From Eledone cirrhosa (taxonomy: Eukaryota): a stretch of DNA of 64,000 bases. The notes beneath the pieces were generated by a model. That model searched no databases, was not told the origin of the DNA, and saw only the letters and a list, made by a program, of their open reading frames with translations. Every line of letters begins with the position of its first letter. Position 1 is the stretch's first letter. The stretch lies in the NCBI GenBank assembly GCA_964016885.1, contig OZ024743.1, positions 104,656,001-104,720,000 on the forward strand. The letters are read 5' to 3'. The position numbers and the translations under genes are program-made. Below are positions 51,931-52,632 of this stretch, piece after piece.

Positions 51931-52632
51931 TATCACGATAAATTAACGGAGCCATAGACTCTCGTTATTCCCTGTCATTAATGTGCTCAAAGGAGAAGGA
52001 ATCCCGAGCCCTTTATAATACAATATGTAGAAAAGATAACACACCAGAGAGAGAGAGAGATAGTGTGCCATCAGTCAAACAGAGAAAAACCACCAGTGTA
52101 TGGAATATATAGCCCATGGAAGGCAAAGTAGACACACAATAATTAAAAGTATAAATCAAAGTGCAAATACGTACCTTAATAACTATCTAACACACACGTA
52201 CAAATCCAAAAGGATCTGTTTCGCCAAGTAGGTTGTTGACAGAAATGATTAGCCCATAGTTCATCAGCGTATGTAAGGCATTACATTTCAGACAACACTA
52301 AAAGAATCTAAAGCGACAGTCCAGCCACACGTGGTAGAGAGAAATTCACAGCGTGCCTAGGACAGTAACCAGTGGTCTCGGAGGGACGAGCTGCTAGAAA
52401 GAGCAGCCCAAACCACTGAGAGAAGTGTGCTCAACCAAACAGAGAGAGAGAGAGAGAGGAGAGACTGTTATAAGGAGCGAAATATCACGATAAATTAACG
52501 GAGCCATAGACTATCGCTATTCCCTGTCATTAATGTGCTCAAAGGAGGAGAAATCCTGAGCTCTTTATAATACAATATGTAGAAAAGATAACACACCAGA
52601 GAGAGAGATAGTGCACAAACCTGGACCCTTGG
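51931..52632 (-). mobile_element. Retrozyme-like partial tandem element (552-nt period) carrying a hammerhead
   Basis: ~135-bp direct repeats at 51931-52065 and 52483-52613 with a few substitutions; HHR between them; (TA)n on both sides. Confidence 0.78.
52192..52274 (-). ncRNA. Type I hammerhead ribozyme with a full stem III
   Basis: acatacg CTGATGA actatggg…cctacttggc GAAA cagatcc tttt ggatttg TA cgtgtgt. Confidence 0.82.

What the first reader, a model, noticed from the sequence alone, without database searches (positions are those of the whole stretch)
51931..52632. Retrozyme-like 552-nt monomer (~1.25 copies) with a fully stemmed hammerhead
Direct repeats 552 nt apart bracket a single minus-strand HHR with a 7-bp stem I, a 7-bp stem III capped by UUUU and a GUA site; stem II is bulged. 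The stable stem III suggests monomeric cleavage, unlike minimal Penelope HHRs. A partial tandem like this is what more than one round of reverse transcription on a circular RNA would produce. There is no coding capacity.
Basis: partly seen in the sequence, partly recalled or inferred. Interest (0 to 1): 0.78.

Follow-up and report, generated by a model that had tools for sequence, protein, structure and literature searches.

The report
Hammerhead-bearing non-autonomous Penelope-type retroelement copy
This is one decayed copy of a roughly thousand-copy, non-coding 552-base mobile repeat that carries a hammerhead ribozyme motif and is likely pasted into TA microsatellites by the enzymes of Penelope-like jumping genes; its insertion scars support that route but do not show that a circular RNA was the template.

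Summary
The sequence observation holds: 1.24 units of a 552-nt repeat (51930-52614, minus strand) with one type I hammerhead motif, cut site 52199/52198, between (TA)n runs. It belongs to a dispersed non-coding family (940 exact hits of a 3'-end 23-mer). It is a non-LTR retrozyme-type unit, likely moved by Penelope-like element (PLE) enzymes. Copy ends are not freely permuted: 205 of 266 arms end at one of two sites 84 nt apart, the PLE 'tail' signature, and 5' ends vary. Head-to-head insertions nearly always pair one site with the other (60 of 63). Only 4 of 126 arms stop at the ribozyme cut, so the template ran on across it: an uncut tandem transcript or a re-ligated circle, undecided. No RNA run was listed. 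No autonomous parent was found. The scan noted PLE/hammerhead insertions in other genomes, not this DNA.

The parts
51930..52614 (-). Whole insertion, 1.24 units, 5'-truncated
51930..52481 (-). One full 552-nt unit; 34 of 552 positions differ from the subfamily majority
52482..52614 (-). Partial upstream unit (direct repeat 1)
51930..52059 (-). Direct repeat 2, ending at 3'-end site B
52192..52274 (-). Type I hammerhead motif; predicted cut between 52199 and 52198
   Evidence: sequence
52107..52174 (-). 68-nt intron-like segment starting 24 nt after the cut (GT donor; AG acceptor in most copies, mutated in this copy); never found removed
51930..52014 (-). 84-nt 'tail' between 3'-end site A (52014) and site B (51930), the inferred reverse-transcription start sites
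52390..52408 (-). 19-nt motif shared with a sister ~660-nt hammerhead family; function unknown
51840..51929 (.). (TA)n target run at the 3' end
52615..52633 (-). Not part of the element: 3' end of neighbouring repeat family Y, abutting the 5' junction

Best explanation
This is a decayed, 5'-truncated copy of a non-coding 552-nt tandem unit with a type I hammerhead motif, likely inserted into a (TA)n run by the reverse transcriptase/GIY-YIG protein of an autonomous Penelope-like element acting in trans. Shown: dispersed family, no ORF, two fixed 3' ends 84 nt apart joined to (TA)n, variable 5' ends, frequent head-to-head arms that pair one end with the other, no stop at the ribozyme cut, intron-like segment retained. 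Inferred: the protein nicks both strands of the TA target and starts cDNA at two internal RNA sites, one per strand; each cDNA stops at a variable point, and here one ran 685 nt, past one unit. The template was continuous across the cut site. I judge an uncut multi-unit transcript slightly likelier (about 0.5) than a cleaved and re-ligated circle (about 0.45). This copy is a product, not a source: it has one ribozyme.
For: 940 exact hits of a 23-mer near the 3' end versus 59 of a stem III pattern: 3' bias. In 144 loci, 205 of 266 arms end at site A (98) or B (107), and 183 of those 205 are followed by TA-rich sequence. Of 88 head-to-head clusters, 60 are A+B, 2 B+B, 1 A+A and 25 have one non-canonical end; in loci picked on interior sequence 37 versus 1, binomial p 1.4e-10. 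55 of 205 arms exceed one unit; translated searches with 8 PLE proteins found no coding sequence contiguous with a copy (nearby hits L121 and L173 are separated by TA runs). The genome holds many RT + C-terminal GIY-YIG ORFs (10,597 GIY-YIG candidates) that also end in (TA)n at two sites about 40 nt apart, and one inverted pair uses one site per arm (L065). PMC11167929: PLE protein cuts and extends both strands, starts at two internal RNA sites that define the tail, and uses unprocessed RNA in vitro. PMC8557442: inverted 5'-truncated copy, tail at one end, microsatellite bias. 10.64898/2026.07.22.740005: animal retrozymes are PLE-derived.
Against: No autonomous element sharing this unit was found in 40 GIY-YIG loci examined of 150 listed; the partner is inferred from the scar only. 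The 84-nt tail is longer than the 30-40 bp described. The 144 loci were chosen by similarity or by exact motifs, so lengths and proportions are biased. 61 of 266 arms end elsewhere. Target-site duplications cannot be read in (TA)n. Rfam does not score the motif as a hammerhead. No cleavage or RNA data.
Confidence: 0.8

Rival explanations
1. One reading: dimeric source loci self-cleave, the 552-nt monomer is ligated into a circle, and the PLE enzyme copies round the circle. This is a variant of the best explanation that differs only in the template.
For: 122 of 126 arms pass the cut site. Direct repeats in one insertion differ at 28 of 296 polymorphic cells versus 42% between loci, and inverted arms at 13 of 222. 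Stem III pairs are kept in 98% of cells, with compensatory changes in stem I. The unit folds as a circle at z -4.3 against 40 shuffles. Circles are shown for coral, mussel and axolotl retrozymes (PMC7229834).
Against: A homogeneous uncut tandem predicts the same. Family Y makes >1-unit copies without a hammerhead core. Paired fraction 56% is no higher than shuffles. Only 3 of 266 arms hold two intact cores. Active fold is 6.1 kcal/mol above the minimum here, median about 4 in the family. This copy's two repeats differ at 4 of 12 polymorphic sites (two are CpG, so inconclusive). 8 of 9 Xenopus retrozymes did not cleave in vitro (10.64898/2026.07.22.740005).
Confidence: 0.45
2. The unit is the pseudo-LTR of an autonomous PLE not yet found, and these are its truncated ends.
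For: Same anatomy as a pLTR: hammerhead, retained intron, tail. Only 40 of 2,329 DNA candidates were scored.
Against: All 55 arms longer than one unit run into another unit, up to 2.9 units; no similarity beyond one TA-separated 70-nt fragment in 40 ORF loci.
Confidence: 0.1
3. A satellite-like repeat spread by DNA recombination, with a chance or vestigial hammerhead.
For: A sister family forms long arrays.
Against: Dispersed single insertions with fixed 3' ends, 3' bias and inverted arms; the motif scan gives 0 hits in 20 control windows.
Confidence: 0.03

Closest known systems
Metazoan non-LTR retrozymes (PMC7229834; 10.64898/2026.07.22.740005)
   Same: Non-coding tandem unit of a few hundred bases, one type I hammerhead per unit, GC under 50% (42%), monomer-rich and dispersed, coexists with PLEs.
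   Different: 552 nt versus about 170-400 nt for the expressed invertebrate examples (within the 51-972 range of the 2026 preprint); 8-bp stem III and 31-nt loop II; retained intron-like segment; mostly truncated and inverted copies; circles not shown.
Insertions of endonuclease-positive Penelope-like elements (Neptune/Poseidon type; PMC8557442, PMC11167929)
   Same: Partial tandem, variable 5' truncation, adjacent inverted arm, tail at one end only, AT-rich or (TA)n target, hammerhead upstream of two internal start sites, intron retained.
   Different: No ORF; tail 84 nt rather than 30-40; hammerhead has a long stem III rather than the minimal metazoan form (PMC4209133, which also reports long stem III in fungal and protist PLEs).
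Plant LTR retrozymes
   Same: Non-autonomous, hammerhead-bearing, direct repeats.
   Different: Type I rather than type III hammerhead; the repeats are a partial tandem with variable 5' ends, not fixed LTRs.

Membership tests
Non-LTR retrozyme | Type I hammerhead with intact core and three stems | tested here: met
   Core and stems by sequence; 93.8% of cells paired over 56 copies, GUA in 53 of 53 parsed. Stem II base is A.C in 21 of 53. Rfam gives no hit.
Non-LTR retrozyme | Head-to-tail unit of a few hundred bases without ORF | tested here: met
   552-nt period; up to 2.9 units (L201); no ORF.
Non-LTR retrozyme | [quoted passage not shown] | tested here: not met
   This copy has one. In the family, 3 of 266 arms have two intact cores, so the family meets it and this copy is a monomer derivative.
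Non-LTR retrozyme | Self-cleavage of the RNA | not testable with these tools
   Folding predicts a slid stem I register and no stem II; tertiary contacts are not modelled.
Non-LTR retrozyme | Expressed as circular RNA | not testable with these tools
   No RNA holder listed.
PLE-mobilised insertion | Two fixed 3' ends (tail) and variable 5' truncation | tested here: met
PLE-mobilised insertion | Inverted 5'-truncated copy adjoining, tail at one end | tested here: met
   Family level: 88 head-to-head clusters, 60 of 63 classifiable are A+B. The window copy has no inverted arm.
PLE-mobilised insertion | Microsatellite or AT-rich target | tested here: met
   183 of 205 canonical ends are followed by TA-rich sequence.
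PLE-mobilised insertion | Sequence shared with the pLTR of an autonomous PLE | tested here: inconclusive
   None in 40 ORF loci; genome not searched exhaustively.
Autonomous PLE | RT + GIY-YIG ORF | tested here: not met
LTR retrozyme | Type III hammerhead in fixed LTRs | tested here: not met
   Type I topology; variable 5' ends.

The most novel reading that the evidence does not exclude
A PLE protein dimer loads on one hammerhead-made RNA circle, nicks both strands of a TA run, and its two subunits start cDNA at two different sites, one per strand, each copying round the circle by strand displacement. One mechanism would then give the partial tandem, the inverted arm and the one-sided tail, and would be direct evidence that PLEs move retrozyme circles.
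Probability: 0.25. Interest if true: 0.72.

Novelty: new member of a known kind. Interest (0 to 1): 0.45.

Why it matters
The element class is known. What this family adds is a clean genomic footprint linking a retrozyme-type unit to PLE enzymes, a link so far argued from co-occurrence and pLTR similarity. The near-strict rule that the two arms of an inverted insertion use different start sites, in a 552-nt ORF-free unit, gives a small substrate for testing how PLEs build tandem and inverted insertions. The known statement is only that the tail is often at one end. My six paper searches showed no description of this family or count of this rule; subscription papers and repeat libraries were not searched.

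Tried and rejected
Rfam on the window, the element, a less decayed copy and family Y: no ribozyme family. RNA runs: no RNA holder listed; three contig sets of unrecorded kind from one sample were laid, showing many variants and heavier cover at the 3' end but nothing on expression. One contig joint close to the intron borders prompted a search for intron-less copies: 0 hits at 1 mismatch, and 69 of 69 copies measured keep the segment. Apparent links to PLE ORFs at L035, L121, L173, L039 and L083 are separate insertions divided by TA runs. Copies 2.0-2.7 kb apart (L161, L162) hold no ORF between them. The idea that 52615-52633 is an inverted arm from a second RNA was rejected: it lies in the same sense and is the end of an adjacent family Y insertion; co-insertion is not excluded. 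A pile-up of 5' ends at the cut: none, 4 of 126. A pile-up at exactly one round or at the other start site: none clear. Higher conservation of the ribozyme between subfamilies: 0 of 14 differences in stem I and core against about 9% overall, too few to call. Earlier scan notes by sequence: none.

Full report
Observation. The window reads (TA)n, then 685 nt at 51930-52614, then 19 other bases and (TA)n. Two 130-nt repeats, 94.6% alike, are 552 nt apart. My motif scan found it and three other motifs in the window, and none in 20 Markov-1 controls. Rfam does not score it, so the call rests on the core and stems. No ORF of 120 aa lies inside. The 19 bases at 52615-52633 are the 3' end of another family, Y.

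Family. The genome is 3.0 Gb. A DNA search gave 2,329 candidates, 40 scored, at 90-93% identity. A 23-mer near the 3' end has 940 exact hits and a stem III pattern 59. I analysed 144 loci: 80 picked on interior sequence and 64 on the 3' 23-mer, after dropping 16 overlapping or near-duplicate loci. This is a biased sample of at least 940 places. There are two subfamilies about 9% apart; the window copy differs from its subfamily majority at 34 of 552 positions, so it is decayed.

Insertion anatomy. Of 266 arms, 98 end at site A (window 52014/52566), 107 at site B (51930/52482) and 61 elsewhere; 183 of the 205 are followed by TA-rich sequence. 5' ends are spread over the whole unit. 88 clusters are head-to-head: 60 A+B, 2 B+B, 1 A+A, 25 with one non-canonical end; among interior-picked loci 37 versus 1, p 1.4e-10. 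In 41 of 55 adjacent A+B pairs both arms copy the same stretch. The arms share a haplotype, differing at 13 of 222 polymorphic cells against 42% between loci; gene conversion could contribute. This matches PLEs. PMC8557442 (12 passages read) describes partial tandems, an inverted truncated copy, a 30-40 bp tail often at one end, and microsatellite bias. PMC11167929 (parts 1-2 of 4 read) shows a PLE protein cutting and extending both strands, starting at two internal RNA sites that define the tail, using unprocessed RNA, with no dependence on ribozyme cleavage in vitro; it saw no difference in start site between strands.

Partner. GIY-YIG matches are abundant (10,597 candidates). [quoted passage not shown] They end in (TA)n at two sites about 40 nt apart and carry minimal or degenerate hammerhead motifs; the inverted pair at L065 uses one site per arm. 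None of 40 such loci shares the 552-nt unit beyond a TA-separated 70-nt fragment. No family copy is contiguous with coding sequence, and all 55 arms longer than one unit run into another unit. The family is therefore non-autonomous, and its enzyme source is inferred, not identified. 'Neptune-like' for these ORFs is my reading of the cysteine motif before the endonuclease, recalled and not tested by a tree.

Ribozyme. Over 56 copies 93.8% of cells pair; stem III 98.4%; 9 cells change on both sides, 0 of 500 shuffles as high, though relatedness inflates this. Core position 7 and loop III vary while GUA is kept in 53 of 53 parsed copies; the base of stem II is A-U in 29 and A.C in 21. Against ready monomeric cleavage: the predicted minimum fold slides stem I by two bases along the GU repeat and replaces stem II; the active fold costs 6.1 kcal/mol here and a median of about 4 in 50 copies. 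Tertiary contacts are not modelled, so this is a caution only. A GT..AG segment of 68 nt starts 22-24 nt after the cut and is kept in 69 of 69 copies measured; no intron-less junction exists at 1 mismatch. Intron retention is a PLE trait (PMC8557442; PMC4209133, 12 passages read).

Template. A cleaved linear monomer predicts a hard stop 185 or 269 nt from the 3' end. Only 4 of 126 arms reaching the cut stop within 12 nt. The template was continuous there. Repeats within one insertion share a haplotype (28 of 296 cells differ), which fits a circle and equally a homogeneous tandem. For a circle: the conserved motif, z -4.3 as a circle, and circles shown for other animal retrozymes (PMC7229834, parts 2-4 of 6 read). 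Against: family Y has no CUGANGA core on either strand of its unit, yet has copies of 880-940 nt against a ~640-nt period; only 3 of 266 arms have two intact cores; 8 of 9 Xenopus elements did not cleave (10.64898/2026.07.22.740005, parts 1-3 of 5 read). I put the uncut transcript at about 0.5 and the circle at about 0.45. The window copy cannot release a monomer. No RNA holder was listed.

Comparison and novelty. It works like a PLE-mobilised insertion and fits the non-LTR retrozyme class at family level; cleavage and circles are untested, and this copy fails the two-ribozyme criterion. The 2026 preprint already argues that animal retrozymes derive from PLEs, mainly from vertebrates. PMC13282606 (4 passages read) lists Penelope families in an octopus genome and has no occurrence of 'ribozyme'. 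That the host is octopus-like is my recollection from a SINE in the window and comes from no call. No supplements were read; those of PMC7229834 and PMC8557442 may list related motifs. Earlier scan notes report PLE copies starting at hammerhead edges in other genomes; this family shows no such pile-up at the cut. Verdict: new member of a known kind, interest 0.45, raised by the near-strict A+B rule.

Noticed in passing
window 52615-53105: Family Y: ~640-nt non-coding unit with an internal (TA)n, two 3' ends and partial tandems, but no hammerhead core and no Rfam ribozyme hit.
   Followed up: partly
L246:885-6900; G000:C1:92.99-93.02 Mb: Sister ~660-673-nt family with a type I hammerhead followed by a splice-donor-like GTATGT about 14 nt after the cut; a nine-unit insertion with nine intact cores, and a long array. 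A better candidate for circle production.
   Followed up: partly
L052:5200-5750: A third hammerhead unit with a 459-nt period and a donor-like site about 15 nt after the cut.
   Followed up: no
window 9628-9700 (+), 26953 (-), 26149 (-): Three more type I hammerhead-like motifs in short TA-flanked repeats; the one at 26953 sits in a head-to-head pair.
   Followed up: partly
window 29856-30665 (-): Truncated PLE fragment with a GIY-YIG match below the Pfam cut-off.
   Followed up: partly
window 14618-15592 (+), 16792-17691 (-): Non-LTR retrotransposon fragments: zf-RVT (weak) and RVT_1.
   Followed up: no
window 48580-55280: Many copies of a ~170-200-nt SINE-like repeat in both orientations.
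   Followed up: no
window 33228-41102 and 58449-63715: Long strongly skewed repeat tracts giving open frames of up to 2,624 codons.
   Followed up: no
alignment A2: Copies with the shorter GU run after the cut favour the active stem I register (median probability 0.69, 10 copies) over those with the longer run (0.23, 31 copies); a possible register switch.
   Followed up: partly
L051:2809-5622, L053:775-4062: Uninterrupted PLE reading frames of 938 and 1,096 codons, usable as enzyme sources.
   Followed up: partly
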